Below are positions 43,401 to 64,000 of a stretch of DNA of 64,000 nt, piece after piece (within the stretch, counting starts at the first letter, position 1; each line of letters starts with the position of its first letter). The notes below the pieces were generated by a model. The model was not told the DNA's origin and ran no database searches. It was given only the letters and a program-made list of their open reading frames with translations. A program made the translations under genes and the position numbers. The stretch is from the NCBI GenBank assembly GCA_038087875.1, contig CM075990.1:18230001-18294000 (forward strand), read 5' to 3'. The DNA is from Malacoraja senta. Taxonomy: Eukaryota.

Positions 43401-46400
43401 TACTGTTATTCTCCATCATCCCCCCTTTGGTTTGGGTTTCACCCTCCTGACTCCATTTGAATCTTTTCTGTGGCCTGCTCCTTCTGCGGTTTTGATTTGC
43501 CTGAGTGATGAAGCCCGTGTCACTGTAAAGGTTAGGTTGTGATTTATCGGACAGTGGGACAACATGCCCTCTGGTGCTTATTGATCTCCCCCTGGGGATT
43601 CCTTTTCACTGTGTACTGTCACTTGGTATTTGGCCCACGGTTTCATCACCCTTGTCCAAATCTATTTGCCTTACACTTGCCCTTCCATAGATTTGTGGGA
43701 GTCAGTCAGGATCCACCCTAGGTTTGAGTTTACTGTTATTCTCCATCATCCCCCCTTTGGTTTGGGTTTCACCCTCCTGACTCCATTTGAATCTTTTCTG
43801 TGGCCTGCTCCTTCTGCGGTTTTGATTTGCCTGAGTGATGAAGCCCGTGTCACTGTAAAGGTTAGGTTGTGATTTATCGGACAGTGGGACAACATGCCCT
43901 CTGGTGCTTATTGATCTCCCCCTGGGGATTCCTTTTCACTGTGTACTGTCACTTGGTATTTGGCCCACGGTTTCATCACCCTTGTCCAAATCTATTTGCC
44001 TTACACTTGCCCTTCCATAGATTTGTGGGAGTCAGTCAGGATCCACCCTAGGTTTGAGTTTACTGTTATTCTCCATCATCCCCCCTTTGGTTTGGGTTTC
44101 ACCCTCCTGACTCCATTTGAATCTTTTCTGTGGCCTGCTCCTTCTGCGGTTTTGATTTGCCTGAGTGATGAAGCCCGTGTCACTGTAAAGGTTAGGTTGT
44201 GATTTATCGGACAGTGGGACAACATGCCCTCTGGTGCTTATTGATCTCCCCCTGGGGATTCCTTTTCACTGTGTACTGTCACTTGGTATTTGGCCCACGG
44301 TTTCATCACCCTTGTCCAAATCTATTTGCCTTACACTTGCCCTTCCATAGATTTGTGGGAGTCAGTCAGGATCCACCCTAGGTTTGAGTTTACTGTTATT
44401 CTCCATCATCCCCCCTTTGGTTTGGGTTTCACCCTCCTGACTCCATTTGAATCTTTTCTGTGGCCTGCTCCTTCTGCGGTTTTGATTTGCCTGAGTGATG
44501 AAGCCCGTGTCACTGTAAAGGTTAGGTTGTGATTTATCGGACAGTGGGACAACATGCCCTCTGGTGCTTATTGATCTCCCCCTGGGGATTCCTTTTCACT
44601 GTGTACTGTCACTTGGTATTTGGCCCACGGTTTCATCACCCTTGTCCAAATCTATTTGCCTTACACTTGCCCTTCCATAGATTTGTGGGAGTCAGTCAGG
44701 ATCCACCCTAGGTTTGAGTTTACTGTTATTCTCCATCATCCCCCCTTTGGTTTGGGTTTCACCCTCCTGACTCCATTTGAATCTTTTCTGTGGCCTGCTC
44801 CTTCTGCGGTTTTGATTTGCCTGAGTGATGAAGCCCGTGTCACTGTAAAGGTTAGGTTGTGATTTATCGGACAGTGGGACAACATGCCCTCTGGTGCTTA
44901 TTGATCTCCCCCTGGGGATTCCTTTTCACTGTGTACTGTCACTTGGTATTTGGCCCACGGTTTCATCACCCTTGTCCAAATCTATTTGCCTTACACTTGC
45001 CCTTCCATAGATTTGTGGGAGTCAGTCAGGATCCACCCTAGGTTTGAGTTTACTGTTATTCTCCATCATCCCCCCTTTGGTTTGGGTTTCACCCTCCTGA
45101 CTCCATTTGAATCTTTTCTGTGGCCTGCTCCTTCTGCGGTTTTGATTTGCCTGAGTGATGAAGCCCGTGTCACTGTAAAGGTTAGGTTGTGATTTATCGG
45201 ACAGTGGGACAACATGCCCTCTGGTGCTTATTGATCTCCCCCTGGGGATTCCTTTTCACTGTGTACTGTCACTTGGTATTTGGCCCACGGTTTCATCACC
45301 CTTGTCCAAATCTATTTGCCTTACACTTGCCCTTCCATAGATTTGTGGGAGTCAGTCAGGATCCACCCTAGGTTTGAGTTTACTGTTATTCTCCATCATC
45401 CCCCCTTTGGTTTGGGTTTCACCCTCCTGACTCCATTTGAATCTTTTCTGTGGCCTGCTCCTTCTGCGGTTTTGATTTGCCTGAGTGATGAAGCCCGTGT
45501 CACTGTAAAGGTTAGGTTGTGATTTATCGGACAGTGGGACAACATGCCCTCTGGTGCTTATTGATCTCCCCCTGGGGATTCCTTTTCACTGTGTACTGTC
45601 ACTTGGTATTTGGCCCACGGTTTCATCACCCTTGTCCAAATCTATTTGCCTTACACTTGCCCTTCCATAGATTTGTGGGAGTCAGTCAGGATCCACCCTA
45701 GGTTTGAGTTTACTGTTATTCTCCATCATCCCCCCTTTGGTTTGGGTTTCACCCTCCTGACTCCATTTGAATCTTTTCTGTGGCCTGCTCCTTCTGCGGT
45801 TTTGATTTGCCTGAGTGATGAAGCCCGTGTCACTGTAAAGGTTAGGTTGTGATTTATCGGACAGTGGGACAACATGCCCTCTGGTGCTTATTGATCTCCC
45901 CCTGGGGATTCCTTTTCACTGTGTACTGTCACTTGGTATTTGGCCCACGGTTTCATCACCCTTGTCCAAATCTATTTGCCTTACACTTGCCCTTCCATAG
46001 ATTTGTGGGAGTCAGTCAGGATCCACCCTAGGTTTGAGTTTACTGTTATTCTCCATCATCCCCCCTTTGGTTTGGGTTTCACCCTCCTGACTCCATTTGA
46101 ATCTTTTCTGTGGCCTGCTCCTTCTGCGGTTTTGATTTGCCTGAGTGATGAAGCCCGTGTCACTGTAAAGGTTAGGTTGTGATTTATCGGACAGTGGGAC
46201 AACATGCCCTCTGGTGCTTATTGATCTCCCCCTGGGGATTCCTTTTCACTGTGTACTGTCACTTGGTATTTGGCCCACGGTTTCATCACCCTTGTCCAAA
46301 TCTATTTGCCTTACACTTGCCCTTCCATAGATTTGTGGGAGTCAGTCAGGATCCACCCTAGGTTTGAGTTTACTGTTATTCTCCATCATCCCCCCTTTGG

Positions 46401-49400
46401 TTTGGGTTTCACCCTCCTGACTCCATTTGAATCTTTTCTGTGGCCTGCTCCTTCTGCGGTTTTGATTTGCCTGAGTGATGAAGCCCGTGTCACTGTAAAG
46501 GTTAGGTTGTGATTTATCGGACAGTGGGACAACATGCCCTCTGGTGCTTATTGATCTCCCCCTGGGGATTCCTTTTCACTGTGTACTGTCACTTGGTATT
46601 TGGCCCACGGTTTCATCACCCTTGTCCAAATCTATTTGCCTTACACTTGCCCTTCCATAGATTTGTGGGAGTCAGTCAGGATCCACCCTAGGTTTGAGTT
46701 TACTGTTATTCTCCATCATCCCCCCTTTGGTTTGGGTTTCACCCTCCTGACTCCATTTGAATCTTTTCTGTGGCCTGCTCCTTCTGCGGTTTTGATTTGC
46801 CTGAGTGATGAAGCCCGTGTCACTGTAAAGGTTAGGTTGTGATTTATCGGACAGTGGGACAACATGCCCTCTGGTGCTTATTGATCTCCCCCTGGGGATT
46901 CCTTTTCACTGTGTACTGTCACTTGGTATTTGGCCCACGGTTTCATCACCCTTGTCCAAATCTATTTGCCTTACACTTGCCCTTCCATAGATTTGTGGGA
47001 GTCAGTCAGGATCCACCCTAGGTTTGAGTTTACTGTTATTCTCCATCATCCCCCCTTTGGTTTGGGTTTCACCCTCCTGACTCCATTTGAATCTTTTCTG
47101 TGGCCTGCTCCTTCTGCGGTTTTGATTTGCCTGAGTGATGAAGCCCGTGTCACTGTAAAGGTTAGGTTGTGATTTATCGGACAGTGGGACAACATGCCCT
47201 CTGGTGCTTATTGATCTCCCCCTGGGGATTCCTTTTCACTGTGTACTGTCACTTGGTATTTGGCCCACGGTTTCATCACCCTTGTCCAAATCTATTTGCC
47301 TTACACTTGCCCTTCCATAGATTTGTGGGAGTCAGTCAGGATCCACCCTAGGTTTGAGTTTACTGTTATTCTCCATCATCCCCCCTTTGGTTTGGGTTTC
47401 ACCCTCCTGACTCCATTTGAATCTTTTCTGTGGCCTGCTCCTTCTGCGGTTTTGATTTGCCTGAGTGATGAAGCCCGTGTCACTGTAAAGGTTAGGTTGT
47501 GATTTATCGGACAGTGGGACAACATGCCCTCTGGTGCTTATTGATCTCCCCCTGGGGATTCCTTTTCACTGTGTACTGTCACTTGGTATTTGGCCCACGG
47601 TTTCATCACCCTTGTCCAAATCTATTTGCCTTACACTTGCCCTTCCATAGATTTGTGGGAGTCAGTCAGGATCCACCCTAGGTTTGAGTTTACTGTTATT
47701 CTCCATCATCCCCCCTTTGGTTTGGGTTTCACCCTCCTGACTCCATTTGAATCTTTTCTGTGGCCTGCTCCTTCTGCGGTTTTGATTTGCCTGAGTGATG
47801 AAGCCCGTGTCACTGTAAAGGTTAGGTTGTGATTTATCGGACAGTGGGACAACATGCCCTCTGGTGCTTATTGATCTCCCCCTGGGGATTCCTTTTCACT
47901 GTGTACTGTCACTTGGTATTTGGCCCACGGTTTCATCACCCTTGTCCAAATCTATTTGCCTTACACTTGCCCTTCCATAGATTTGTGGGAGTCAGTCAGG
48001 ATCCACCCTAGGTTTGAGTTTACTGTTATTCTCCATCATCCCCCCTTTGGTTTGGGTTTCACCCTCCTGACTCCATTTGAATCTTTTCTGTGGCCTGCTC
48101 CTTCTGCGGTTTTGATTTGCCTGAGTGATGAAGCCCGTGTCACTGTAAAGGTTAGGTTGTGATTTATCGGACAGTGGGACAACATGCCCTCTGGTGCTTA
48201 TTGATCTCCCCCTGGGGATTCCTTTTCACTGTGTACTGTCACTTGGTATTTGGCCCACGGTTTCATCACCCTTGTCCAAATCTATTTGCCTTACACTTGC
48301 CCTTCCATAGATTTGTGGGAGTCAGTCAGGATCCACCCTAGGTTTGAGTTTACTGTTATTCTCCATCATCCCCCCTTTGGTTTGGGTTTCACCCTCCTGA
48401 CTCCATTTGAATCTTTTCTGTGGCCTGCTCCTTCTGCGGTTTTGATTTGCCTGAGTGATGAAGCCCGTGTCACTGTAAAGGTTAGGTTGTGATTTATCGG
48501 ACAGTGGGACAACATGCCCTCTGGTGCTTATTGATCTCCCCCTGGGGATTCCTTTTCACTGTGTACTGTCACTTGGTATTTGGCCCACGGTTTCATCACC
48601 CTTGTCCAAATCTATTTGCCTTACACTTGCCCTTCCATAGATTTGTGGGAGTCAGTCAGGATCCACCCTAGGTTTGAGTTTACTGTTATTCTCCATCATC
48701 CCCCCTTTGGTTTGGGTTTCACCCTCCTGACTCCATTTGAATCTTTTCTGTGGCCTGCTCCTTCTGCGGTTTTGATTTGCCTGAGTGATGAAGCCCGTGT
48801 CACTGTAAAGGTTAGGTTGTGATTTATCGGACAGTGGGACAACATGCCCTCTGGTGCTTATTGATCTCCCCCTGGGGATTCCTTTTCACTGTGTACTGTC
48901 ACTTGGTATTTGGCCCACGGTTTCATCACCCTTGTCCAAATCTATTTGCCTTACACTTGCCCTTCCATAGATTTGTGGGAGTCAGTCAGGATCCACCCTA
49001 GGTTTGAGTTTACTGTTATTCTCCATCATCCCCCCTTTGGTTTGGGTTTCACCCTCCTGACTCCATTTGAATCTTTTCTGTGGCCTGCTCCTTCTGCGGT
49101 TTTGATTTGCCTGAGTGATGAAGCCCGTGTCACTGTAAAGGTTAGGTTGTGATTTATCGGACAGTGGGACAACATGCCCTCTGGTGCTTATTGATCTCCC
49201 CCTGGGGATTCCTTTTCACTGTGTACTGTCACTTGGTATTTGGCCCACGGTTTCATCACCCTTGTCCAAATCTATTTGCCTTACACTTGCCCTTCCATAG
49301 ATTTGTGGGAGTCAGTCAGGATCCACCCTAGGTTTGAGTTTACTGTTATTCTCCATCATCCCCCCTTTGGTTTGGGTTTCACCCTCCTGACTCCATTTGA

Positions 49401-52400
49401 ATCTTTTCTGTGGCCTGCTCCTTCTGCGGTTTTGATTTGCCTGAGTGATGAAGCCCGTGTCACTGTAAAGGTTAGGTTGTGATTTATCGGACAGTGGGAC
49501 AACATGCCCTCTGGTGCTTATTGATCTCCCCCTGGGGATTCCTTTTCACTGTGTACTGTCACTTGGTATTTGGCCCACGGTTTCATCACCCTTGTCCAAA
49601 TCTATTTGCCTTACACTTGCCCTTCCATAGATTTGTGGGAGTCAGTCAGGATCCACCCTAGGTTTGAGTTTACTGTTATTCTCCATCATCCCCCCTTTGG
49701 TTTGGGTTTCACCCTCCTGACTCCATTTGAATCTTTTCTGTGGCCTGCTCCTTCTGCGGTTTTGATTTGCCTGAGTGATGAAGCCCGTGTCACTGTAAAG
49801 GTTAGGTTGTGATTTATCGGACAGTGGGACAACATGCCCTCTGGTGCTTATTGATCTCCCCCTGGGGATTCCTTTTCACTGTGTACTGTCACTTGGTATT
49901 TGGCCCACGGTTTCATCACCCTTGTCCAAATCTATTTGCCTTACACTTGCCCTTCCATAGATTTGTGGGAGTCAGTCAGGATCCACCCTAGGTTTGAGTT
50001 TACTGTTATTCTCCATCATCCCCCCTTTGGTTTGGGTTTCACCCTCCTGACTCCATTTGAATCTTTTCTGTGGCCTGCTCCTTCTGCGGTTTTGATTTGC
50101 CTGAGTGATGAAGCCCGTGTCACTGTAAAGGTTAGGTTGTGATTTATCGGACAGTGGGACAACATGCCCTCTGGTGCTTATTGATCTCCCCCTGGGGATT
50201 CCTTTTCACTGTGTACTGTCACTTGGTATTTGGCCCACGGTTTCATCACCCTTGTCCAAATCTATTTGCCTTACACTTGCCCTTCCATAGATTTGTGGGA
50301 GTCAGTCAGGATCCACCCTAGGTTTGAGTTTACTGTTATTCTCCATCATCCCCCCTTTGGTTTGGGTTTCACCCTCCTGACTCCATTTGAATCTTTTCTG
50401 TGGCCTGCTCCTTCTGCGGTTTTGATTTGCCTGAGTGATGAAGCCCGTGTCACTGTAAAGGTTAGGTTGTGATTTATCGGACAGTGGGACAACATGCCCT
50501 CTGGTGCTTATTGATCTCCCCCTGGGGATTCCTTTTCACTGTGTACTGTCACTTGGTATTTGGCCCACGGTTTCATCACCCTTGTCCAAATCTATTTGCC
50601 TTACACTTGCCCTTCCATAGATTTGTGGGAGTCAGTCAGGATCCACCCTAGGTTTGAGTTTACTGTTATTCTCCATCATCCCCCCTTTGGTTTGGGTTTC
50701 ACCCTCCTGACTCCATTTGAATCTTTTCTGTGGCCTGCTCCTTCTGCGGTTTTGATTTGCCTGAGTGATGAAGCCCGTGTCACTGTAAAGGTTAGGTTGT
50801 GATTTATCGGACAGTGGGACAACATGCCCTCTGGTGCTTATTGATCTCCCCCTGGGGATTCCTTTTCACTGTGTACTGTCACTTGGTATTTGGCCCACGG
50901 TTTCATCACCCTTGTCCAAATCTATTTGCCTTACACTTGCCCTTCCATAGATTTGTGGGAGTCAGTCAGGATCCACCCTAGGTTTGAGTTTACTGTTATT
51001 CTCCATCATCCCCCCTTTGGTTTGGGTTTCACCCTCCTGACTCCATTTGAATCTTTTCTGTGGCCTGCTCCTTCTGCGGTTTTGATTTGCCTGAGTGATG
51101 AAGCCCGTGTCACTGTAAAGGTTAGGTTGTGATTTATCGGACAGTGGGACAACATGCCCTCTGGTGCTTATTGATCTCCCCCTGGGGATTCCTTTTCACT
51201 GTGTACTGTCACTTGGTATTTGGCCCACGGTTTCATCACCCTTGTCCAAATCTATTTGCCTTACACTTGCCCTTCCATAGATTTGTGGGAGTCAGTCAGG
51301 ATCCACCCTAGGTTTGAGTTTACTGTTATTCTCCATCATCCCCCCTTTGGTTTGGGTTTCACCCTCCTGACTCCATTTGAATCTTTTCTGTGGCCTGCTC
51401 CTTCTGCGGTTTTGATTTGCCTGAGTGATGAAGCCCGTGTCACTGTAAAGGTTAGGTTGTGATTTATCGGACAGTGGGACAACATGCCCTCTGGTGCTTA
51501 TTGATCTCCCCCTGGGGATTCCTTTTCACTGTGTACTGTCACTTGGTATTTGGCCCACGGTTTCATCACCCTTGTCCAAATCTATTTGCCTTACACTTGC
51601 CCTTCCATAGATTTGTGGGAGTCAGTCAGGATCCACCCTAGGTTTGAGTTTACTGTTATTCTCCATCATCCCCCCTTTGGTTTGGGTTTCACCCTCCTGA
51701 CTCCATTTGAATCTTTTCTGTGGCCTGCTCCTTCTGCGGTTTTGATTTGCCTGAGTGATGAAGCCCGTGTCACTGTAAAGGTTAGGTTGTGATTTATCGG
51801 ACAGTGGGACAACATGCCCTCTGGTGCTTATTGATCTCCCCCTGGGGATTCCTTTTCACTGTGTACTGTCACTTGGTATTTGGCCCACGGTTTCATCACC
51901 CTTGTCCAAATCTATTTGCCTTACACTTGCCCTTCCATAGATTTGTGGGAGTCAGTCAGGATCCACCCTAGGTTTGAGTTTACTGTTATTCTCCATCATC
52001 CCCCCTTTGGTTTGGGTTTCACCCTCCTGACTCCATTTGAATCTTTTCTGTGGCCTGCTCCTTCTGCGGTTTTGATTTGCCTGAGTGATGAAGCCCGTGT
52101 CACTGTAAAGGTTAGGTTGTGATTTATCGGACAGTGGGACAACATGCCCTCTGGTGCTTATTGATCTCCCCCTGGGGATTCCTTTTCACTGTGTACTGTC
52201 ACTTGGTATTTGGCCCACGGTTTCATCACCCTTGTCCAAATCTATTTGCCTTACACTTGCCCTTCCATAGATTTGTGGGAGTCAGTCAGGATCCACCCTA
52301 GGTTTGAGTTTACTGTTATTCTCCATCATCCCCCCTTTGGTTTGGGTTTCACCCTCCTGACTCCATTTGAATCTTTTCTGTGGCCTGCTCCTTCTGCGGT

Positions 52401-53960
52401 TTTGATTTGCCTGAGTGATGAAGCCCGTGTCACTGTAAAGGTTAGGTTGTGATTTATCGGACAGTGGGACAACATGCCCTCTGGTGCTTATTGATCTCCC
52501 CCTGGGGATTCCTTTTCACTGTGTACTGTCACTTGGTATTTGGCCCACGGTTTCATCACCCTTGTCCAAATCTATTTGCCTTACACTTGCCCTTCCATAG
52601 ATTTGTGGGAGTCAGTCAGGATCCACCCTAGGTTTGAGTTTACTGTTATTCTCCATCATCCCCCCTTTGGTTTGGGTTTCACCCTCCTGACTCCATTTGA
52701 ATCTTTTCTGTGGCCTGCTCCTTCTGCGGTTTTGATTTGCCTGAGTGATGAAGCCCGTGTCACTGTAAAGGTTAGGTTGTGATTTATCGGACAGTGGGAC
52801 AACATGCCCTCTGGTGCTTATTGATCTCCCCCTGGGGATTCCTTTTCACTGTGTACTGTCACTTGGTATTTGGCCCACGGTTTCATCACCCTTGTCCAAA
52901 TCTATTTGCCTTACACTTGCCCTTCCATAGATTTGTGGGAGTCAGTCAGGATCCACCCTAGGTTTGAGTTTACTGTTATTCTCCATCATCCCCCCTTTGG
53001 TTTGGGTTTCACCCTCCTGACTCCATTTGAATCTTTTCTGTGGCCTGCTCCTTCTGCGGTTTTGATTTGCCTGAGTGATGAAGCCCGTGTCACTGTAAAG
53101 GTTAGGTTGTGATTTATCGGACAGTGGGACAACATGCCCTCTGGTGCTTATTGATCTCCCCCTGGGGATTCCTTTTCACTGTGTACTGTCACTTGGTATT
53201 TGGCCCACGGTTTCATCACCCTTGTCCAAATCTATTTGCCTTACACTTGCCCTTCCATAGATTTGTGGGAGTCAGTCAGGATCCACCCTAGGTTTGAGTT
53301 TACTGTTATTCTCCATCATCCCCCCTTTGGTTTGGGTTTCACCCTCCTGACTCCATTTGAATCTTTTCTGTGGCCTGCTCCTTCTGCGGTTTTGATTTGC
53401 CTGAGTGATGAAGCCCGTGTCACTGTAAAGGTTAGGTTGTGATTTATCGGACAGTGGGACAACATGCCCTCTGGTGCTTATTGATCTCCCCCTGGGGATT
53501 CCTTTTCACTGTGTACTGTCACTTGGTATTTGGCCCACGGTTTCATCACCCTTGTCCAAATCTATTTGCCTTACACTTGCCCTTCCATAGATTTGTGGGA
53601 GTCAGTCAGGATCCACCCTAGGTTTGAGTTTACTGTTATTCTCCATCATCCCCCCTTTGGTTTGGGTTTCACCCTCCTGACTCCATTTGAATCTTTTCTG
53701 TGGCCTGCTCCTTCTGCGGTTTTGATTTGCCTGAGTGATGAAGCCCGTGTCACTGTAAAGGTTAGGTTGTGATTTATCGGACAGTGGGACAACATGCCCT
53801 CTGGTGCTTATTGATCTCCCCCTGGGGATTCCTTTTCACTGTGTACTGTCACTTGGTATTTGGCCCACGGTTTCATCACCCTTGTCCAAATCTATTTGCC
53901 TTACACTTGCCCTTCCATAGATTTGTGGGAGTCAGTCAGGATCCACCCTAGGTTTGAGTT
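43401..53960. repeat. 32 tandem copies of a 330-bp unit derived from the PLE region immediately downstream of the ORF2 stop codon
   Basis: The unit TACTGTTATT...GGTTTGAGTT equals 21938-22267. The period is exactly 330 (10560/330 = 32) and I saw no differences between copies. Confidence 0.97.
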
Positions 53961-54760
53961 TATGCTAGATTTAGGCCATTAGGCTCTTTTGTCTGTAGCG
54001 CTTCTATCCATAGCCTCTCTGCTCTCTTGCGTCTCCCTGTTGTCCAATTTATGTTTGTTTCCAGACCCATGATCTCTACGGACTGGATCCCATGTTGCTG
54101 GAAGTGTCTGCTAATGGGTATGGATTGGTCTCCCCTTGTGATGTTGCTGAGGTGTCCTGTCAGCCTGACTCTCATGCTGTTACCTGTTTCGCCTATGTAC
54201 AGTAAGTTGCACTCTTTACATCTAATTGCATACACCACATTCTTTTGCTCACAGGTTATCCTCTGTGCTATCTGGCCTTTCTTCCCTGTTACACTGTTCT
54301 CTATATTTTTGGCTATTACTAAATGGGTGCAGGCTCCACACCGTCTCTGCCCACAGTCTGGGTCTGTGTGTAGACTTGTACTGACCAGGATGTCCTTCAG
54401 ATTTTTAGCCCTCTTGAATGCTGACATTACCTTGTACCCCTTTAGTGTGGCAAATCCCCTTTGGAATTGTTCAAAACGGCCCTTGACTATTTTGTGGGCC
54501 TGGACTGCCATGTTGCCATATCTTGTGATTAGTGGCAAGTTCAATGTCGTCCCCGGCCTAGGTCTGGGTGCTTGTATGCTACTTAGAAAATCTGACTTAA
54601 TGTATCTTAATTTCCTTTTGCAGTAACCCCTCTGTCTGAGGGCGGTGAATAGGGTGCTTGTGGCCTGGTTGAAATCCTCCTCCCTAGTACATATACGGTG
54701 GAAGCGGGTCAGTTGTGACTTGACGATGACTGGGCAACGATTTTCCAGTTTCGCTATCAC
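53960..54760 (-). pseudogene. 5'-deleted ORF2: RT C-terminal region, Cys knuckle and GIY-YIG endonuclease
   Basis: Matches ORF2 from IVKSQL onward (one L>V change). The first 11 codons come from ribozyme sequence and the start codon is GTG. Confidence 0.85.
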
Positions 54761-55520
54761 TGTAGCTTCGTCAGGGAAAGAGATCTAGTCCTAGCCGGTT
54801 AGGGTTTTTAAAGGGTAGGTTGATGCTCCTCCCTTTCTGGGTGGAGCTTGCCATGTGTTGGGTCCTAGGACCGGTCACTTTGGTTGGGCACACCCTGTTT
54901 CTTGTTTGGACTGGTTAGCCCTCTTCCTTTGTTGTGTTAGTTACCACATGTCTCTGGTATCTTGTATCCTTTATTGCTAATGTTTTCAGCCTCTGTTGAT
55001 CAATAAATGTGCAAAAATCTCTTGTCCACTATTATGTTCTGCAAGTATTATCATGGGGTGAGTTGTGCTTTGCCTATCCTGTCTGACCATCCTTTGGCTC
55101 CCTCTCTGGTCCTCCCTGTCTCCCTATCCTAGTTTTAGAGTGTCCCTCACTTCAATCCTATGATTATTCGAGCCCACTCTATTTCGGTTTGTACTGTTAT
55201 TCTCCATCATCCCCCCTTTGGTTTGGGTTTCACCCTCCTGACTCCATTTGAATCTTTTCTGTGGCCTGCTCCTTCTGCGGTTTTGATTTGCCTGAGTGAT
55301 GAAGCCCGTGTCACTGTAAAGGTTAGGTTGTGATTTATCGGACAGTGGGACAACATGCCCTCTGGTGCTTATTGATCTCCCCCTGGGGATTCCTTTTCAC
55401 TGTGTACTGTCACTTGGTATTTGGCCCACGGTTTCATCACCCTTGTCCAAATCTATTTGCCTTACACTTGCCCTTCCATAGATTTGTGGGAGTCAGTCAG
55501 GATCCACCCTAGGTTTGAGT

Positions 55521-56321
55521 TTATGCTAGATTTAGGCCATTAGGCTCTTTTGTCTGTAGCGCTTCTATCCATAGCCTCTCTGCTCTCTTGCGTCTCCCTG
55601 TTGTCCAATTTATGTTTGTTTCCAGACCCATGATCTCTAGGGACTGGATCCCATGTTGCTGGAAGTGTCTGCTAATGGGTATGGATTGGTCTCCCCTTGT
55701 GATGTTGCTGAGGTGTCCTGTCAGCCTGACTCTCATGCTGTTACCTGTTTCGCCTATGTACAGTAAGTTGCACTCTTTACATCTAATTGCATACACCACA
55801 TTCTTTTGCTCACAGGTTATCCTCTGTGCTATCTGGCCTTTCTTCCCTGTTACACTGTTCTCTATATTTTTGGCTATTACTAAATGGGTGCAGGCTCCAC
55901 ACCGTCTCTGCCCACAGTCTGGGTCTGTGTGTAGACTTGTACTGACCAGGATGTCCTTCAGATTTTTAGCCCTCTTGAATGCTGACATTACCTTGTACCC
56001 CTTTAGTGTGGCAAATCCCCTTTGGAATTGTTCAAAACGGCCCTTGACTATTTTGTGGGCCTGGACTGCCATGTTGCCATATCTTGTGATTAGTGGCAAG
56101 TTCAATGTCGTCCCCGGCCTAGGTCTGGGTGCTTGTATGCTACTTAGAAAATCTGACTTAATGTATCTTAATTTCCTTTTGCAGTAACCCCTCTGTCTGA
56201 GGGCGGTGAATAGGGTGCTTGTGGCCTGGTTGAAATCCTCCTCCCTAGTACATATACGGTGGAAGCGGGTCAGTTGTGACTTGACGATGACTGGGCAACG
56301 ATTTTCCAGTTTCGCTATCAC
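55521..56321 (-). pseudogene. 5'-deleted ORF2 (endonuclease-containing fragment)
   Basis: Same 266-codon frame as 53960-54760. Confidence 0.85.
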
Positions 56322-57081
56322 TGTAGCTTCGTCAGGGAAAGAGATCTAGTCCTAGCCGGTTAGGGTTTTTAAAGGGTAGGTTGATGCTCCTCCCTTTCTG
56401 GGTGGAGCTTGCCATGTGTTGGGTCCTAGGACCGGTCACTTTGGTTGGGCACACCCTGTTTCTTGTTTGGACTGGGTAGCCCTCTTCCTTTGTTGTGTTA
56501 GTTACCACATGTCTCTGGTATCTTGTATCCTTTATTGCTAATGTTTTCAGCCTCTGTTGATCAATAAATGTGCAAAAATCTCTTGTCCACTATTATGTTC
56601 TGCAAGTATTATCATGGGGTGAGTTGTGCTTTGCCTATCCTGTCTGACCATCCTTTGGCTCCCTCTCTGGTCCTCCCTGTCTCCCTATCCTAGTTTTAGA
56701 GTGTCCCTCACTTCAATCCTATGATTATTCGAGCCCACTCTATTTCGGTTTGTACTGTTATTCTCCATCATCCCCCCTTTGTTTTGGGTTTCACCCTCCT
56801 GACTCCATTTGAATCTTTTCTGTGGCCTGCTCCTTCTGCGGTTTTGATTTGCCTGAGTGATGAAGCCCGTGTCACTGTAAAGGTTAGGTTGTGATTTATC
56901 GGACAGTGGGACAACATGCCCTCTGGTGCTTATTGATCTCCCCCTGGGGATTCCTTTTCACTGTGTACTGTCACTTGGTATTTGGCCCACGGTTTCATCA
57001 CCCTTGTCCAAATCTATTTGCCTTACACTTGCCCTTCCATAGATTTGTGGGAGTCAGTCAGGATCCACCCTAGGTTTGAGT

Positions 57082-57882
57082 TTATGCTAGATTTAGGCCA
57101 TTAGGCTCTTTTGTCTGTAGCGCTTCTATCCATAGCCTCTCTGCTCTCTTGCGTCTCCCTGTTGTCCAATTTATGTTTGTTTCCAGACCCATGATCTCTA
57201 GGGACTGGATCCCATGTTGCTGGAAGTGTCTGCTAATGGGTATGGATTGGTCTCCCCTTGTGATGTTGCTGAGGTGTCCTGTCAGCCTGACTCTCATGCT
57301 GTTACCTGTTTCGCCTATGTACAGTAAGTTGCACTCTTTACATCTAATTGCATACACCACATTCTTTTGCTCACAGGTTATCCTCTGTGCTATCTGGCCT
57401 TTCTTCCCTGTTACACTGTTCTCTATATTTTTGGCTATTACTAAATGGGTGCAGGCTCCACACCGTCTCTGCCCACAGTCTGGGTCTGTGTGTAGACTTG
57501 TACTGACCAGGATGTCCTTCAGATTTTTAGCCCTCTTGAATGCTGACATTACCTTGTACCCCTTTAGTGTGGCAAATCCCCTTTGGAATTGTTCAAAACG
57601 GCCCTTGACTATTTTGTGGGCCTGGACTGCCATGTTGCCATATCTTGTGATTAGTGGCAAGTTCAATGTCGTCCCCGGCCTAGGTCTGGGTGCTTGTATG
57701 CTACTTAGAAAATCTGACTTAATGTATCTTAATTTCCTTTTGCAGTAACCCCTCTGTCTGAGGGCGGTGAATAGGGTGCTTGTGGCCTGGTTGAAATCCT
57801 CCTCCCTAGTACATATACGGTGGAAGCGGGTCAGTTGTGACTTGACGATGACTGGGCAACGATTTTCCAGTTTCGCTATCAC
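57082..57882 (-). pseudogene. 5'-deleted ORF2 (endonuclease-containing fragment)
   Basis: Same 266-codon frame, period 1561. Confidence 0.85.
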
Positions 57883-58642
57883 TGTAGCTTCGTCAGGGAA
57901 AGAGATCTAGTCCTAGCCGGTTAGGGTTTTTAAAGGGTAGGTTGATGCTCCTCCCTTTCTGGGTGGAGCTTGCCATGTGTTGGGTCCTAGGACCGGTCAC
58001 TTTGGTTGGGCACACCCTGTTTCTTGTTTGGACTGGTTAGCCCTCTTCCTTTGTTGTGTTAGTTACCACATGTCTCTGGTATCTTGTATCCTTTATTGCT
58101 AATGTTTTCAGCCTCTGTTGATCAATAAATGTGCAAAAATCTCTTGTCCACTATTATGTTCTGCAAGTATTATCATGGGGTGAGTTGTGCTTTGCCTATC
58201 CTGTCTGACCATCCTTTGGCTCCCTCTCTGGTCCTCCCTGTCTCCCTATCCTAGTTTTAGAGTGTCCCTCACTTCAATCCTATGATTATTCGAGCCCACT
58301 CTATTTCGGTTTGTACTGTTATTCTCCATCATCCCCCCTTTGGTTTGGGTTTCACCCTCCTGACTCCATTTGAATCTTTTCTGTGGCCTGCTCCTTCTGC
58401 GGTTTTGATTTGCCTGAGTGATGAAGCCCGTGTCACTGTAAAGGTTAGGTTGTGATTTATCGGACAGTGGGACAACATGCCCTCTGGTGCTTATTGATCT
58501 CCCCCTGGGGATTCCTTTTCACTGTGTACTGTCACTTGGTATTTGGCCCACGGTTTCATCACCCTTGTCCAAATCTATTTGCCTTACACTTGCCCTTCCA
58601 TAGATTTGTGGGAGTCAGTCAGGATCCACCCTAGGTTTGAGT

Positions 58643-59443
58643 TTATGCTAGATTTAGGCCATTAGGCTCTTTTGTCTGTAGCGCTTCTATCCATAGCCTC
58701 TCTGCTCTCTTGCGTCTCCCTGTTGTCCAATTTATGTTTGTTTCCAGACCCATGATCTCTAGGGACTGGATCCCATGTTGCTGGAAGTGTCTGCTAATGG
58801 GTATGGATTGGTCTCCCCTTGTGATGTTGCTGAGGTGTCCTGTCAGCCTGACTCTCATGCTGTTACCTGTTTCGCCTATGTACAGTAAGTTGCACTCTTT
58901 ACATCTAATTGCATACACCACATTCTTTTGCTCACAGGTTATCCTTTGTGCTATCTGGCCTTTCTTCCCTGTTACACTGTTCTCTATATTTTTGGCTATT
59001 ACTAAATGGGTGCAGGCTCCACACCGTCTCTGCCCACAGTCTGGGTCTGTGTGTAGACTTGTACTGACCAGGATGTCCTTCAGATTTTTAGCCCTCTTGA
59101 ATGCTGACATTACCTTGTACCCCTTTAGTGTGGCAAATCCCCTTTGGAATTGTTCAAAACGGCCCTTGACTATTTTGTGGGCCTGGACTGCCATGTTGCC
59201 ATATCTTGTGATTAGTGGCAAGTTCAATGTCGTCCCCGGCCTAGGTCTGGGTGCTTGTATGCTACTTAGAAAATCTGACTTAATGTATCTTAATTTCCTT
59301 TTGCAGTAACCCCTCTGTCTGAGGGCGGTGAATAGGGTGCTTGTGGCCTGGTTGAAATCCTCCTCCCTAGTACATATACGGTGGAAGCGGGTCAGTTGTG
59401 ACTTGACGATGACTGGGCAACGATTTTCCAGTTTCGCTATCAC
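58643..59443 (-). pseudogene. 5'-deleted ORF2 (endonuclease-containing fragment)
   Basis: Same 266-codon frame, period 1561. Confidence 0.85.
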
Positions 59444-60203
59444 TGTAGCTTCGTCAGGGAAAGAGATCTAGTCCTAGCCGGTTAGGGTTTTTAAAGGGTA
59501 GGTTGATGCTCCTCCCTTTCTGGGTGGAGCTTGCCATGTGTTGGGTCCTAGGACCGGTCACTTTGGTTGGGCACACCCTGTTTCTTGTTTGGACTGGTTA
59601 GCCCTCTTCCTTTGTTGTGTTAGTTACCACATGTCTCTGGTATCTTGTATCCTTTATTGCTAATGTTTTCAGCCTCTGTTGATCAATAAATGTGCAAAAA
59701 TCTCTTGTCCACTATTATGTTCTGCAAGTATTATCATGGGGTGAGTTGTGCTTTGCCTATCCTGTCTGACCATCCTTTGGCTCCCTCTCTGGTCCTCCCT
59801 GTCTCCCTATCCTAGTTTTAGAGTGTCCCTCACTTCAATCCTATGATTATTCGAGCCCACTCTATTTCGGTTTGTACTGTTATTCTCCATCATCCCCCCT
59901 TTGGTTTGGGTTTCACCCTCCTGACTCCATTTGAATCTTTTCTGTGGCCTGCTCCTTCTGCGGTTTTGATTTGCCTGAGTGATGAAGCCCGTGTCACTGT
60001 AAAGGTTAGGTTGTGATTTATCGGACAGTGGGACAACATGCCCTCTGGTGCTTATTGATCTCCCCCTGGGGATTCCTTTTCACTGTGTACTGTCACTTGG
60101 TATTTGGCCCACGGTTTCATCACCCTTGTCCAAATCTATTTGCCTTACACTTGCCCTTCCATAGATTTGTGGGAGTCAGTCAGGATCCACCCTAGGTTTG
60201 AGT

Positions 60204-61004
60204 TTATGCTAGATTTAGGCCATTAGGCTCTTTTGTCTGTAGCGCTTCTATCCATAGCCTCTCTGCTCTCTTGCGTCTCCCTGTTGTCCAATTTATGTTT
60301 GTTTCCAGACCCATGATCTCTAGGGACTGGATCCCATGTTGCTGGAAGTGTCTGCTAATGGGTATGGATTGGTCTCCCCTTGTGATGTTGCTGAGGTGTC
60401 CTGTCAGCCTGACTCTCATGCTGTTACCTGTTTCGCCTATGTACAGTAAGTTGCACTCTTTACATCTAATTGCATACACCACATTCTTTTGCTCACAGGT
60501 TATCCTCTGTGCTATCTGGCCTTTCTTCCCTGTTACACTGTTCTCTATATTTTTGGCTATTACTAAATGGGTGCAGGCTCCACACCGTCTCTGCCCACAG
60601 TCTGGGTCTGTGTGTAGACTTGTACTGACCAGGATGTCCTTCAGATTTTTAGCCCTCTTGAATGCTGACATTACCTTGTACCCCTTTAGTGTGGCAAATC
60701 CCCTTTGGAATTGTTCAAAACGGCCCTTGACTATTTTGTGGGCCTGGACTGCCATGTTGCCATATCTTGTGATTAGTGGCAAGTTCAATGTCGTCCCCGG
60801 CCTAGGTCTGGGTGCTTGTATGCTACTTAGAAAATCTGACTTAATGTATCTTAATTTCCTTTTGCAGTAACCCCTCTGTCTGAGGGCGGTGAATAGGGTG
60901 CTTGTGGCCTGGTTGAAATCCTCCTCCCTAGTACATATACGGTGGAAGCGGGTCAGTTGTGACTTGACGATGACTGGGCAACGATTTTCCAGTTTCGCTA
61001 TCAC
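60204..61004 (-). pseudogene. 5'-deleted ORF2 (endonuclease-containing fragment)
   Basis: Same 266-codon frame, period 1561. Confidence 0.85.
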
Positions 61005-61764
61005 TGTAGCTTCGTCAGGGAAAGAGATCTAGTCCTAGCCGGTTAGGGTTTTTAAAGGGTAGGTTGATGCTCCTCCCTTTCTGGGTGGAGCTTGCCATGT
61101 GTTGGGTCCTAGGACCGGTCACTTTGGTTGGGCACACCCTGTTTCTTGTTTGGACTGGTTAGCCCTCTTCCTTTGTTGTGTTAGTTACCACATGTCTCTG
61201 GTATCTTGTATCCTTTATTGCTAATGTTTTCAGCCTCTGTTGATCAATAAATGTGCAAAAATCTCTTGTCCACTATTATGTTCTGCAAGTATTATCATGG
61301 GGTGAGTTGTGCTTTGCCTATCCTGTCTGACCATCCTTTGGCTCCCTCTCTGGTCCTCCCTGTCTCCCTATCCTAGTTTTAGAGTGTCCCTCACTTCAAT
61401 CCTATGATTATTCGAGCCCACTCTATTTCGGTTTGTACTGTTATTCTCCATCATCCCCCCTTTGGTTTGGGTTTCACCCTCCTGACTCCATTTGAATCTT
61501 TTCTGTGGCCTGCTCCTTCTGCGGTTTTGATTTGCCTGAGTGATGAAGCCCGTGTCACTGTAAAGGTTAGGTTGTGATTTATCGGACAGTGGGACAACAT
61601 GCCCTCTGGTGCTTATTGATCTCCCCCTGGGGATTCCTTTTCACTGTGTACTGTCACTTGGTATTTGGCCCACGGTTTCATCACCCTTGTCCAAATCTAT
61701 TTGCCTTACACTTGCCCTTCCATAGATTTGTGGGAGTCAGTCAGGATCCACCCTAGGTTTGAGT

Positions 61765-62565
61765 TTATGCTAGATTTAGGCCATTAGGCTCTTTTGTCTG
61801 TAGCGCTTCTATCCATAGCCTCTCTGCTCTCTTGCGTCTCCCTGTTGTCCAATTTATGTTTGTTTCCAGACCCATGATCTCTAGGGACTGGATCCCATGT
61901 TGCTGGAAGTGTCTGCTAATGGGTATGGATTGGTCTCCCCTTGTGATGTTGCTGAGGTGTCCTGTCAGCCTGACTCTCATGCTGTTACCTGTTTCGCCTA
62001 TGTACAGTAAGTTGCACTCTTTACATCTAATTGCATACACCACATTCTTTTGCTCACAGGTTATCCTCTGTGCTATCTGGCCTTTCTTCCCTGTTACACT
62101 GTTCTCTATATTTTTGGCTATTACTAAATGGGTGCAGGCTCCACACCGTCTCTGCCCACAGTCTGGGTCTGTGTGTAGACTTGTACTGACCAGGATGTCC
62201 TTCAGATTTTTAGCCCTCTTGAATGCTGACATTACCTTGTACCCCTTTAGTGTGGCAAATCCCCTTTGGAATTGTTCAAAACGGCCCTTGACTATTTTGT
62301 GGGCCTGGACTGCCATGTTGCCATATCTTGTGATTAGTGGCAAGTTCAATGTCGTCCCCGGCCTAGGTCTGGGTGCTTGTATGCTACTTAGAAAATCGGA
62401 CTTAATGTATCTTAATTTCCTTTTGCAGTAACCCCTCTGTCTGAGGGCGGTGAATAGGGTGCTTGTGGCCTGGTTGAAATCCTCCTCCCTAATACATATA
62501 CGGTGGAAGCGGGTCAGTTGTGACTTGACGATGACTGGGCAACGATTTTCCAGTTTCGCTATCAC
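61765..62565 (-). pseudogene. 5'-deleted ORF2 (endonuclease-containing fragment)
   Basis: Same frame with one T>I change (ICIREE). Confidence 0.85.
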
Positions 62566-63319
62566 TGTAGCTTCGTCAGGGAAAGAGATCTAGTCCTAGC
62601 CGGTTTTTAAAGGGTAGGTTGATGCTCCTCCCTTTCTGGGTGGAGCTTGCCATGTGTTGGGTCCTAGGACCGGTCACTTTGGTTGGGCACACCCTGTTTC
62701 TTGTTTGGACTGGTTAGCCCTCTTCCTTTGTTGTGTTAGTTACCACATGTCTCTGGTATCTTGTATCCTTTATTGCTAATGTTTTCAGCCTCTGTTGATC
62801 AATAAATGTGCAAAAATCTCTTGTCCACTATTATGTTCTGCAAGTATTATCATGGGGTGAGTTGTGCTTTGCCTATCCTGTCTGACCATCCTTTGGCTCC
62901 CTCTCTGGTCCTCCCTGTCTCCCTATCCTAGTTTTAGAGTGTCCCTCACTTCAATCCTATGATTATTCGAGCCCACTCTATTTCGGTTTGTACTGTTATT
63001 CTCCATCATCCCCCCTTTGGTTTGGGTTTCACCCTCCTGACTCCATTTGAATCTTTTCTGTGGCCTGCTCCTTCTGCGGTTTTGATTTGCCTGAGTGATG
63101 AAGCCCGTGTCACTGTAAAGGTTAGGTTGTGATTTATCGGACAGTGGGACAACATGCCCTCTGGTGCTTATTGATCTCCCCCTGGGGATTCCTTTTCACT
63201 GTGTACTGTCACTTGGTATTTGGCCCACGGTTTCATCACCCTTGTCCAAATCTATTTGCCTTACACTTGCCCTTCCATAGATTTGTGGGAGTCAGTCAGG
63301 ATCCACCCTAGGTTTGAGT

Positions 63320-64000
63320 TTATGCTAGATTTAGGCCATTAGGCTCTTTTGTCTGTAGCGCTTCTATCCATAGCCTCTCTGCTCTCTTGCGTCTCCCTGT
63401 TGTCCAATTTATGTTTGTTTCCAGACCCATGATCTCTAGGGACTGGATCCCATGTTGCTGGAAGTGTCTGCTAATGGGTATGGATTGGTCTCCCCTTGTG
63501 ATGTTGCTGAGGTGTCCTGTCAGCCTGACTCTCATGCTGTTACCTGTTTCGCCTATGTACAGTAAGTTGCACTCTTTACATCTAATTGCATACACCACAT
63601 TCTTTTGCTCACAGGTTATCCTCTGTGCTATCTGGCCTTTCTTCCCTGTTACACTGTTCTCTATATTTTTGGCTATTACTAAATGGGTGCAGGCTCCACA
63701 CCGTCTCTGCCCACAGTCTGGGTCTGTGTGTAGACTTGTACTGACCAGGATGTCCTTCAGATTTTTAGCCCTCTTGAATGCTGACATTACCTTGTACCCC
63801 TTTAGTGTGGCAAATCCCCTTTGGAATTGTTCAAAACGGCCCTTGACTATTTTGTGGGCCTGGACTGCCATGTTGCCATATCTTGTGATTAGTGGCAAGT
63901 TCAATGTCGTCCCCGGCCTAGGTCTGGGTGCTTGTATGCTACTTAGAAAATCTGACTTAATGTATCTTAATTTCCTTTTGCAGTAACCCCTCTGTCTGAG
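63320..64000 (-). pseudogene. ORF2 3' fragment cut by the window edge
   Basis: GIY-YIG coding region matching the other copies. It cannot be seen whether it continues as a derivative or as a full ORF2. Confidence 0.7.

What the first reader, a model, noticed from the sequence alone, without database searches (positions are those of the whole stretch)
43401..53960. Newborn 330-bp satellite made of exactly the structured priming domain (32 apparently identical copies)
Seen: the unit equals 21938-22267, with one boundary at the ORF2 stop codon (GAGTT-TA-TGC vs GTTTG-TA-CTG, 2-nt TA microhomology). It encloses the whole nested-stem domain and one GGTTAGG site per copy. The array sits in register inside an otherwise colinear element. 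Inference: reiterative copying of one RNA segment or a small circle (telomerase-like repeat addition with a 330-nt unit), or DNA rolling-circle amplification, captures the birth of a telomeric satellite. Copy number and homogeneity could be distorted by assembly.
Basis: partly seen in the sequence, partly recalled or inferred. Interest (0 to 1): 0.72.

Follow-up and report, generated by a model that had tools for sequence, protein, structure and literature searches.

The report
Young satellite from telomeric Penelope retroelement
A 330-base piece from the tail of a telomere-inserting jumping gene in a fish (probably a skate) is repeated 32 times without a single difference; satellites born from jumping genes are known, but here the joins suggest that the element's own RNA-copying enzyme started the array.

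Summary
Confirmed: 43401-53960 is 32 exact copies of 21938-22267. The parent is a two-ORF Penelope-like element (esterase ORF1, RT+GIY-YIG ORF2, type I hammerhead) joined to (TTAGGG)n at its GGTTAGG motif. Its nearest named relative is a thorny-skate protein. Two public runs show raised depth over the unit, so the amplification is not just assembly; the number 32 is unverified. Corrections: the host copy is colinear for only 767 bp on the right, then jumps to the exact hammerhead cut site and enters a 1561-bp array. A 200-N gap separates the array from telomeric DNA. The fold is no better than shuffles, and a 2-nt microhomology is chance-level. New evidence: run contigs show other back-joints (from 22287 and about 22271) landing on the same left site, 21939. 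A fixed acceptor with variable donors points to the element's RT restarting at a defined RNA site to seed a duplication. The templated junction was then probably amplified (RNA circle or DNA recombination). DRT2-like reiteration on one linear RNA is possible but less likely. Verdict: new variant of a known kind (PLE-derived tandem array), interest 0.55.

The parts
43401..53960 (+). Array of 32 identical 330-bp units (= 21938-22267, 3' UTR module of the element); junction equivalent to 22268->21939; one GGTTAGG per unit (first at 43530)
41990..43400 (+). Left flank: host copy's 3' UTR with about two 600-bp repeats and unique sequence, colinear with 20538-21937; start of the contig
53961..54727 (+). 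Right flank: 767 bp of ORF2's 3' end (parent 22268-23034, one private substitution at 54079), ending at a blunt jump
54728..64000 (+). 1561-bp tandem array (five whole units plus 1468 bp of a sixth with a 6-bp deletion) = parent 18922-19241 + 21793-23034; each unit starts at the hammerhead cut site, holds the 330 segment once, and has lost the 3' strand of hammerhead stem I
41790..41989 (.). 200-N scaffold gap between the telomeric contig and the array contig
21938..22267 (+). Single parental copy of the unit in element copy B
21971..22255 (-). Predicted nested-stem domain of the RNA (six long-range nested helices of 4-10 bp, P 0.72-0.99); CCUAACC at 22067-22073 predicted unpaired (0.93); not significant against shuffles
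14600..22066 (-). Element copy A, one whole 7467-bp unit, joined to telomeric repeats at the GGTTAGG motif (7-nt homology)
22067..27145 (-). Element copy B, partial tandem unit, capped by telomeric repeats at a GGGTT microhomology
22267..24546 (-). ORF2 (P0001, 759 aa stop to stop): RT + CX4CX2C linker + GIY-YIG/CCHH endonuclease; second copy at 14800-17079
16998..18791 (-). ORF1 (P0002, 597 aa stop to stop) with C-terminal SGNH/GDSL esterase domain
18914..18976 (-). Type I hammerhead ribozyme, predicted cut between 18922 and 18921; second copy cuts after 26387
19302..21743 (+). Four older ~600-bp repeats (95-96% alike) in the 3' UTR, each with a GGTTAGG site
1..14599 (+). (TTAGGG)n tract proximal to copy A
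27146..41789 (+). (TTAGGG)n tract distal to copy B, with read-like errors and a G-run at 41325-41664

Best explanation
The array is a real, very young tandem derivative of the 3' UTR of an active, telomere-inserting, endonuclease-bearing Penelope-like element (Neptune-like) in a fish, probably a skate. SHOWN: the unit, its source, the junction coordinates, the element's anatomy and telomere joints, and a second array joined at the ribozyme cut. INFERRED, step 1 (seed): the element's RT started (or restarted) cDNA synthesis at a defined site of its RNA, position 21939, from a DNA 3' end lying at or just inside the end of ORF2. That end was either its own cDNA at an RNA 5' end or a nick in a resident copy. 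This made one in-register duplication of 21939-22268. The same site was used in separate events from donors 22287 and probably 22271. INFERRED, step 2 (amplification): the junction, now present in a template, was copied many times by rolling-circle RT over a 330-nt RNA circle or by DNA recombination or rolling-circle copying among these arrays. This gave 31 letter-identical junctions with homologous, in-register entry and exit. The unit keeps the telomere-pairing CCUAACC and may be copied as a non-autonomous passenger; no host function is implied.
For: Fixed acceptor, variable donor: window joint 22268->21939; run contigs show 22287+GGG->21939 (X1 depth 54.5, X2 608.9) and 22268+TATG->21939 (X1 4.47; reads as 22271->21939 with one extra T). 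X3 contig 17 starts at 21939 and its 71 leftover letters equal 46 loose + 25 (22247-22271) (inferred, record not seen). The extra letters GGG and the lack of homology suit an RT jump. RT use of defined RNA ends is visible next door: the 1561-bp unit joins 23034 bluntly to 18922, exactly where a hammerhead descriptor puts the cut (descriptor hits 16 of 86 related loci on the sense strand, 0 of 86 antisense). Copy A starts at the CCUAACC complement; 13 of 33 non-redundant relative families carry CCTAACC in the first 400 nt of the sense 3' UTR, against 0 antisense and 1 of 33 in an ORF2 control. L080 repeats the architecture: tandem dimer, hammerhead, telomere cap. A PLE RT in vitro starts internally at defined sites without homology to the cut DNA, and its endonuclease cuts its own ORF-pLTR junction (PMC11167929, main text read). 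Depth over the unit: X1 1105-7039 at 7 listed places vs 354 (left bin), 585 (22333, 22438) and 253 (ORF1 contig); X2 100,751-164,057 vs 8,794 at 21931. Templated amplification: 0 differences in 10,560 bp; 7 other complete passes unrepeated.
Against: The window's own joint (22268->21939), the 23034->hammerhead joint and the 19241->21793 deletion joint are not listed in any of the 4 runs laid. Short junction contigs may be filtered, but this is unexplained. The alternative joints rest on one contig row each, and the TATG one is at depth 4.47 and may be a read error. Depths are sums over overlapping contigs, not copy numbers; just right of the unit X2 is still high (bins 69,634 and 60,046). No ribozyme core lies in the unit, and no mechanism making an RNA end or start at 21939 was identified. 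The fold is not significant. The window joint has 2 nt of microhomology and a GGTTTG hexamer near both breakpoints, compatible with a DNA slip. No RNA data were laid. In the published PLE, ribozyme cleavage was not needed in vitro and no RNA-seq ends were seen at the cut.
Confidence: 0.5

Rival explanations
1. Purely DNA-level birth: a microhomology-assisted tandem duplication in a resident copy, expanded by unequal exchange, break-induced replication or a DNA circle in a recombinogenic chromosome end; the RT plays no part in the 330-bp junction.
For: TA microhomology and GGTTTG near both breakpoints. Perfect in-register entry and exit. The 1561-bp unit's internal deletion has 3 nt of overlap. 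TE fragments are reported to expand as subtelomeric minisatellites by recombination in frogs (PMC10794172, passages), and duplication plus unequal crossover is called the acknowledged model in the retrozyme preprint.
Against: Different donors land on the same acceptor 21939, one with three extra letters and no homology. A microhomology of 2 nt or more is chance-level, P 0.16. The adjacent array is joined at an RNA-defined site.
Confidence: 0.25
2. Programmed reiteration: the RT stays on one linear RNA and jumps 31 times from the base of the structured domain back to 21939, like DRT2 or telomerase with a 330-nt template, extending a chromosome end.
For: The unit brackets a predicted nested domain whose base brings both ends close. 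DRT2 makes over 100 repeats of a 120-nt unit from a linear structured RNA (PMC12039810, passages). PLE RTs are sister to telomerase RT (PMC8557442, passages). The left flank continues from the RNA's 3' part as this model needs.
Against: 7 of 7 other complete passes in the window are unrepeated. Donor sites vary between events (22268, about 22271, 22287), yet are identical within the array. The structure is not above shuffles, and the domain is not conserved in alignable form in relatives.
Confidence: 0.12
3. Assembly effect: a shorter or more varied array was expanded or homogenised by read overlap and error correction; only the existence of a tandem junction is real.
For: The contig starts 1.4 kb left of the array after a 200-N gap. 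The array has 0 differences in 10,560 bp while five neighbouring 1561-bp units carry 5 substitutions in 7,805 bp (P 0.014 if uniform). The exact joint is not listed in the runs. No whole genome was available.
Against: Depth rises over the unit in two runs from two samples. 10.6 kb is within typical long-read length (general knowledge). Variant junctions exist in the runs.
Confidence: 0.13

Closest known systems
Non-LTR retrozymes and hammerhead satellites derived from PLE pLTRs (bioRxiv 10.64898/2026.07.22.740005, parts 1-3 of 5 read; PMC4209133, passages)
   Same: Tandem non-coding units of a few hundred bp derived from the terminal region of a Penelope-like element; proposed circular-RNA, more-than-unit copying; multimers enriched at chromosome ends or centres in Xenopus.
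   Different: The 330-bp unit has no hammerhead; it holds the telomere-pairing motif instead. The 1561-bp unit has the core but lacks stem I. The parent copy and the exact junction are still visible.
Athena/Terminon and Coprina telomeric PLEs (PMC8557442, PMC6431247, PMC13159263, passages)
   Same: Reverse-complement telomeric motif in the RNA, attachment to G-rich repeats, 5'-truncated copies capped by telomeric repeats, head-to-tail chains, two ORFs, a hammerhead; GDSL esterases occur in Terminons.
   Different: Those lack the endonuclease; this element has an intact GIY-YIG/CCHH domain, lives in a vertebrate, and primed from an internal 3' UTR motif about 3.1 kb from the ribozyme.
Neptune clade of EN+ PLEs; Poseidon PAc of Anolis as the only in vitro model (PMC11167929, main text read; PMC12602865, passages)
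   Same: RT plus C-terminal GIY-YIG, CX2-5CxxC linker, partial tandems, type I hammerhead; internal RT start sites and self-targeting of the ORF-pLTR junction are shown for PAc.
   Different: An esterase ORF1 and telomere attachment were not found described for EN+ PLEs in my searches; PAc has two start sites 30-40 nt apart, whereas here the candidate starts are 22067-22073, 21939 and 18922.
TE-derived satellite DNA in general (PMC12692304, PMC10794172, passages)
   Same: A TE sub-segment tandemised in place into a long homogeneous array; Penelope elements are listed among known sources.
   Different: Zero divergence from the parent, with junction variants that point to an RT-defined boundary.
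DRT2 concatemeric cDNA synthesis (PMC12039810, passages)
   Same: Functional analogy only: an RT making exact tandem copies of a 120-nt segment of a structured RNA.
   Different: Bacterial defence system, unrelated RNA; no evidence here that reiteration is programmed.

Membership tests
Penelope-like element (parent) | RT with C-terminal GIY-YIG endonuclease in one ORF | tested here: met
   RVT_1 E 3.2e-6 (27.5 bits, just under the 29.6 cut-off); GIY-YIG E 4.8e-6 (27.2 bits, above 22.6).
Penelope-like element (parent) | [quoted passage not shown] | tested here: met
   residues 669-683 and 696-716 of P0001; feature from PMC8557442.
Penelope-like element (parent) | Partial tandem organisation with a type I hammerhead | tested here: met
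   Copies A+B, period 7467; hammerhead by fold and descriptor. Rfam did not detect it (0 matches).
Neptune clade | CX2-5CxxC linker upstream of GIY-YIG | tested here: met
   Present in P0001, but in only 3 of 115 proteins with a recognisable GIY-YIG start, query included (121 examined).
Neptune clade | RT phylogeny groups with named Neptune families | not testable with these tools
   No named Neptune reference was returned by any search. Indirect only: a peptide read from a published Fundulus Neptune primer occurs in 2 of 120 hits, and the KIHKxPxxW pattern in 109 of 120 hits and in P0001.
Athena/Coprina (EN-minus telomeric PLEs) | No endonuclease domain | tested here: not met
   GIY-YIG present. 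Not a member; works like them at telomeres.
Athena/Coprina (EN-minus telomeric PLEs) | Joined to G-rich telomeric repeats through a reverse-complement motif; truncated end capped by telomeric repeats | tested here: met
   Copy A joint with 7-nt homology; copy B cap at GGGTT; L080 similar; motif in 13 of 33 relative families.
Non-LTR retrozyme (330-bp array) | Type I hammerhead in every repeat unit | tested here: not met
   No hammerhead core on either strand of the unit.
Non-LTR retrozyme (1561-bp array) | Complete type I hammerhead in every repeat unit | tested here: not met
   Core present in 6 of 6 units, but 0 of 6 pass the descriptor because stem I is lost at the joint.
Non-LTR retrozyme (either array) | Circular RNA intermediate | not testable with these tools
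   Only contigs were available; no RNA run was laid.
TE-derived satellite DNA | Long head-to-tail array of a TE sub-segment | tested here: met
TE-derived satellite DNA | High copy number in the genome, shared among individuals | tested here: inconclusive
   Depth excess in samples S1 and S2 of organism A; sums are not copy numbers, and the samples may be one individual.
SGNH/GDSL esterase ORF1 of retroelements | S, G, N, H catalytic blocks and likeness to a solved retroelement esterase | tested here: met
   Invariant G-D-S, G, N, H in 16 of 16 aligned domains; Lipase_GDSL_2 in 12 of 16 at E<=0.01, the query's score below the curated cut-off; profile hits PDB 4c1b 'ORF1-encoded protein', E 4.2e-8.

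The most novel reading that the evidence does not exclude
The RT of this vertebrate telomeric Penelope-like element, a sister enzyme of telomerase, has repeat-addition behaviour on a long template. It re-primes at a fixed site (21939) of a structured 3' UTR module and writes tens of identical 330-nt units onto a chromosome end, a eukaryotic counterpart of DRT2 and a living model of how telomerase-type reiteration could arise from a retroelement.
Probability: 0.12. Interest if true: 0.88.

Novelty: new variant of a known kind. Interest (0 to 1): 0.55.

Why it matters
How Penelope-like elements make tandems, what their hammerheads do in vivo, and how they seed satellites are open questions: the circle model of PMC4209133 is a proposal, and PMC11167929 saw no RNA ends at the ribozyme cut. 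This locus offers three base-exact cDNA start points in one element: the telomere motif, site 21939 and the ribozyme cut. It also offers two nested arrays with almost no divergence from the parent, so each model predicts a distinct result in long reads, RT-PCR or an in vitro RT assay. It further documents an endonuclease-bearing, esterase-encoding PLE lineage that attaches to TTAGGG repeats in fishes, which I did not find described in seven paper searches. If the origin is purely DNA-level, it is an ordinary young TE-derived satellite.

Tried and rejected
Hammerhead satellite/retrozyme reading of the 330-bp unit: rejected, no core on either strand. Rfam scan of 14500-27200: 0 matches at E<=1, and it missed the real hammerhead too, so it is insensitive here. 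Canonical back-splicing: rejected by inspection of the junctions; none of the three equivalent breakpoints gives a GU donor. Trans-cleavage of 21938/9 by the element's hammerhead: the site shares CAGU with the natural substrate strand, but stem I cannot pair (inspection). Significance of the fold: z -0.82 for the unit, -1.23 for the core, and none of 19 sliding windows below -1.8. Covariation test: not possible, since relatives' UTRs do not align. Of 5 differences listed for run X6 inside the unit, 2 fall in predicted helices and both keep the pair, with no double change; the table was cut (227 rows hidden), so this is no real evidence. The 9 'skip' joints were set aside; of the 6 checked from X1/X2, one is GATC-to-GATC and two more have a restriction site on one side, and the X3 loose ends lie at GANTC and GATC, as in Hi-C ligation. 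The 21939 joints have no such site. Runs X4-X24 held 0.10-0.24 of the words; only X6 was laid. X3 (depth 9.9, no differences in its piece of the unit) may be carry-over and is not counted as a second species. Whole-genome search for other arrays: no genome held. PDB search with the ORF2 alignment: 0 hits. Earlier scan notes: nothing for this genome or protein. An SMG6/NMD cut near the stop codon as the source of the donor ends is recalled knowledge and untested. Supplements of the papers and Repbase entries were not seen and may already describe telomere-targeting Neptune families.
Full report
OBSERVATION. Window 43401-53960 holds 32 letter-identical copies of 21938-22267, and the period of 330 is perfect to 53962. 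The junction can be written 22267->21938, 22268->21939 or 22269->21940 because of a shared TA. Each unit has one GGTTAGG and one BamHI site. The right boundary overlaps the stop codon of ORF2.

CORRECTIONS. (1) The host is not an otherwise colinear element. The left flank follows copy B (98.2% over 41990-43732). The right flank follows ORF2 for 767 bp, then jumps from parent 23034 to parent 18922 and enters a 1561-bp array made of 18922-19241 plus 21793-23034: five whole units and most of a sixth before the window ends. (2) A 200-N gap at 41790-41989 separates this contig from the TTAGGG tracts, so a telomeric position comes from scaffolding only. (3) The predicted helices span 21971-22255, inside but not equal to the unit. 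The fold is no better than shuffles (z -0.82, 17 of 100 as good). (4) Two or more bases of microhomology arise by chance at 16% of random joints.

THE PARENT. [quoted passage not shown] ORF1 ends in an SGNH esterase: catalytic blocks are invariant in 16 of 16 aligned domains, 12 of 16 match Lipase_GDSL_2, and the profile hits PDB 4c1b, E 4.2e-8. A type I hammerhead lies upstream of ORF1; my descriptor found it twice in the window, in 16 of 86 related loci on the sense strand and in 0 of 86 antisense. Copies A and B form a partial tandem of period 7467. Copy A starts at a 7-nt GGTTAGG match to the telomeric tract, and copy B is capped by telomeric repeats at GGGTT. The search found 2385 relatives at E<=1e-20; all but two of the 120 listed are at 45-51% identity. 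The 94% hit shares a 90% cluster with an Amblyraja radiata protein, so the host is probably a skate (inference). ORF1 homology was seen in 52 of 86 related loci. CCTAACC occurs in the first 400 nt of the sense 3' UTR in 13 of 33 non-redundant families (from the 43 of 86 loci with at least 250 nt after the stop), against 0 antisense and 1 of 33 in an ORF2 control. L080 shows the same dimer, hammerhead and telomere cap. The element therefore works like Athena/Coprina at telomeres but is not a member (it has an endonuclease). It is Neptune-like by its linker, which however only 3 of 115 scored proteins have.

IS THE ARRAY REAL? No whole genome was held. Of 24 runs listed, 2 held half or more of the words, both organism A, one study, two samples. 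I laid 4 runs on 21760-26760. In X1, summed depth at 7 listed places in the unit is 1105-7039, against 354 in the left bin, 585 at 22333 and 22438, and 253 for the ORF1 contig. In X2 it is 100,751-164,057 in the unit, against 8,794 at 21931, 60,046-69,634 in the two bins to the right, and 6,953-36,731 in the remaining bins. X3 and X6 are under depth 10 there. These sums double-count overlapping contigs and are not copy numbers, but they do not fit one or a few copies. The number 32 and the 100% identity remain unverified: the contig starts 1.4 kb left of the array, and the neighbouring units carry 5 substitutions in 7,805 bp against 0 in 10,560 (P 0.014). Against my reading, none of the window's three joints is listed.

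JUNCTION EVIDENCE. Table 5c has two back-joints to 21939: from 22287 with GGG between (X1 54.5, X2 608.9; a 352-bp unit), and from 22268 with TATG between (X1 4.47), which reads as 22271->21939 with one extra T. An X3 contig begins at 21939, and its leftover length fits 22247-22271 exactly (inferred arithmetic). These joints do not lie at restriction sites, unlike the Hi-C-type joints in the same runs. So two or three donors within 20 nt of the stop codon land on one acceptor. Next door, the 1561-bp unit is joined bluntly at 18922, the base at which the descriptor places the ribozyme cut. The joint removes stem I, so such an RNA or circle would not be re-cut. The chance that a random breakpoint hits this base of a 7.5-kb element is small; it is one event, copied six times.

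MECHANISM. In vitro, the Anolis PLE protein cuts AT-rich DNA at its own ORF-pLTR junction and starts cDNA at defined internal RNA sites without homology to the primer (PMC11167929, parts 1-2 of 4 read). A circular, more-than-unit template has been proposed for PLE tandems (PMC4209133, passages). My best reading (0.5) has two steps. The RT seeded the duplication by starting at 21939 from a DNA end near the ORF2 stop. The templated junction was then multiplied by rolling-circle RT on a small RNA circle or by DNA recombination; the sequence cannot separate these. Identical junctions within the array, different donors between events, and 7 unrepeated passes elsewhere in the window favour templated amplification over 31 fresh jumps. 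Rivals: a DNA-only birth (0.25); programmed DRT2-like reiteration on a linear RNA (0.12; precedent in PMC12039810, passages); assembly inflation or homogenisation (0.13).

COMPARISON WITH WHAT IS KNOWN. Satellites derived from TEs, Penelope elements included, are established (PMC12692304, passages; subtelomeric expansion of TE fragments in PMC10794172, passages). Retrozymes are tandem derivatives of PLE pLTRs defined by a hammerhead in each unit (bioRxiv 10.64898/2026.07.22.740005, parts 1-3 of 5); neither array meets that test. Telomere attachment is described for EN-minus PLEs (PMC8557442, PMC6431247, PMC13159263, passages), and GDSL esterases for Terminons and some LINEs (PMC5408684, passages; PMC3905857, search listing only). 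A fish Neptune with a short unrelated ORF1 is in PMC12602865 (passages; no occurrence of 'telomer'). Seven searches gave no report of an EN-plus, esterase-bearing, TTAGGG-attached PLE in vertebrates or of an array like this. The primary Terminon paper was not held, and supplements and Repbase were not seen. An earlier unchecked scan note (e1-7271746) reports ribozyme-delimited inserts in a fungal PLE; it is a lead only.

VERDICT. Real and very young; a new variant of a known kind. Its value lies less in the satellite than in the base-exact junction record of PLE reverse transcription, which makes the tandem-formation and ribozyme questions testable. Interest 0.55; if programmed reiteration were shown (probability 0.12), about 0.88.

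Noticed in passing
window 54727/54728 (and 56289, 57850, 59411, 60972, 62533): The 1561-bp array is joined bluntly at the exact predicted hammerhead cut, a genomic trace that ribozyme-cut RNA served as RT template; the joint destroys stem I. Arguably more telling than the 330-bp array.
   Followed up: yes
window 14600-27145; L080; 13 of 33 relative families: A widespread lineage of EN-plus, two-ORF Penelope-like elements with an SGNH esterase ORF1 and CCTAACC motifs in the 3' UTR, attached to TTAGGG repeats; not found described in my searches.
   Followed up: partly
window 19302-21743: Four older ~600-bp repeats built of ~110-bp subrepeats, each with a GGTTAGG site; relatives also have tandem repeats around the motif (L001 51 bp, L006/L008/L009 about 175 bp, L080 75 bp). 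Duplication of motif-bearing segments recurs in the family.
   Followed up: partly
window 18991-18998: A reverse-complement telomeric motif lies about 15 nt on the 5' side of the hammerhead in the RNA; the Terminon review describes such motifs downstream of the ribozyme.
   Followed up: no
window 25477, 25486, 21931, 26666: Copy B lacks two Gs (ORF1 frameshifts) and has T at 21931; copies A and B lack a TG that the runs and the right contig have. The left contig may carry consensus errors or private variants.
   Followed up: partly
window 55521-56345 (minus strand), repeated in each 1561-bp unit: An open frame of 274 codons keeps ORF2 residues from about 505 to the end, including the whole GIY-YIG domain, fused to a short new N-terminus; no start codon or expression checked.
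   Followed up: no
window 7001-11000, 27146-41789, 41325-41664: Telomeric tracts of uneven purity (0.85-0.999) and a G-run before the gap look like long-read errors at low coverage.
   Followed up: no
L029 1901-2006, L037 2644-2796, L038 6072-6224, L061 1736-1797, L082 2484-2703: In several relatives, CCTAAC-rich stretches sit inside or just after the ORF2 match, possibly introns or insertions of telomere-like modules.
   Followed up: no
L080-L086: Animal-type Penelope-like elements occur in contigs of prokaryotic genome records, most likely host DNA carried into those assemblies.
   Followed up: no
window 21882-21927 (minus strand): A well-predicted hairpin begins 11 nt downstream (RNA sense) of site 21939, which lies in an AC-rich unpaired linker; a candidate protein-binding signal for the start site.
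   Followed up: no
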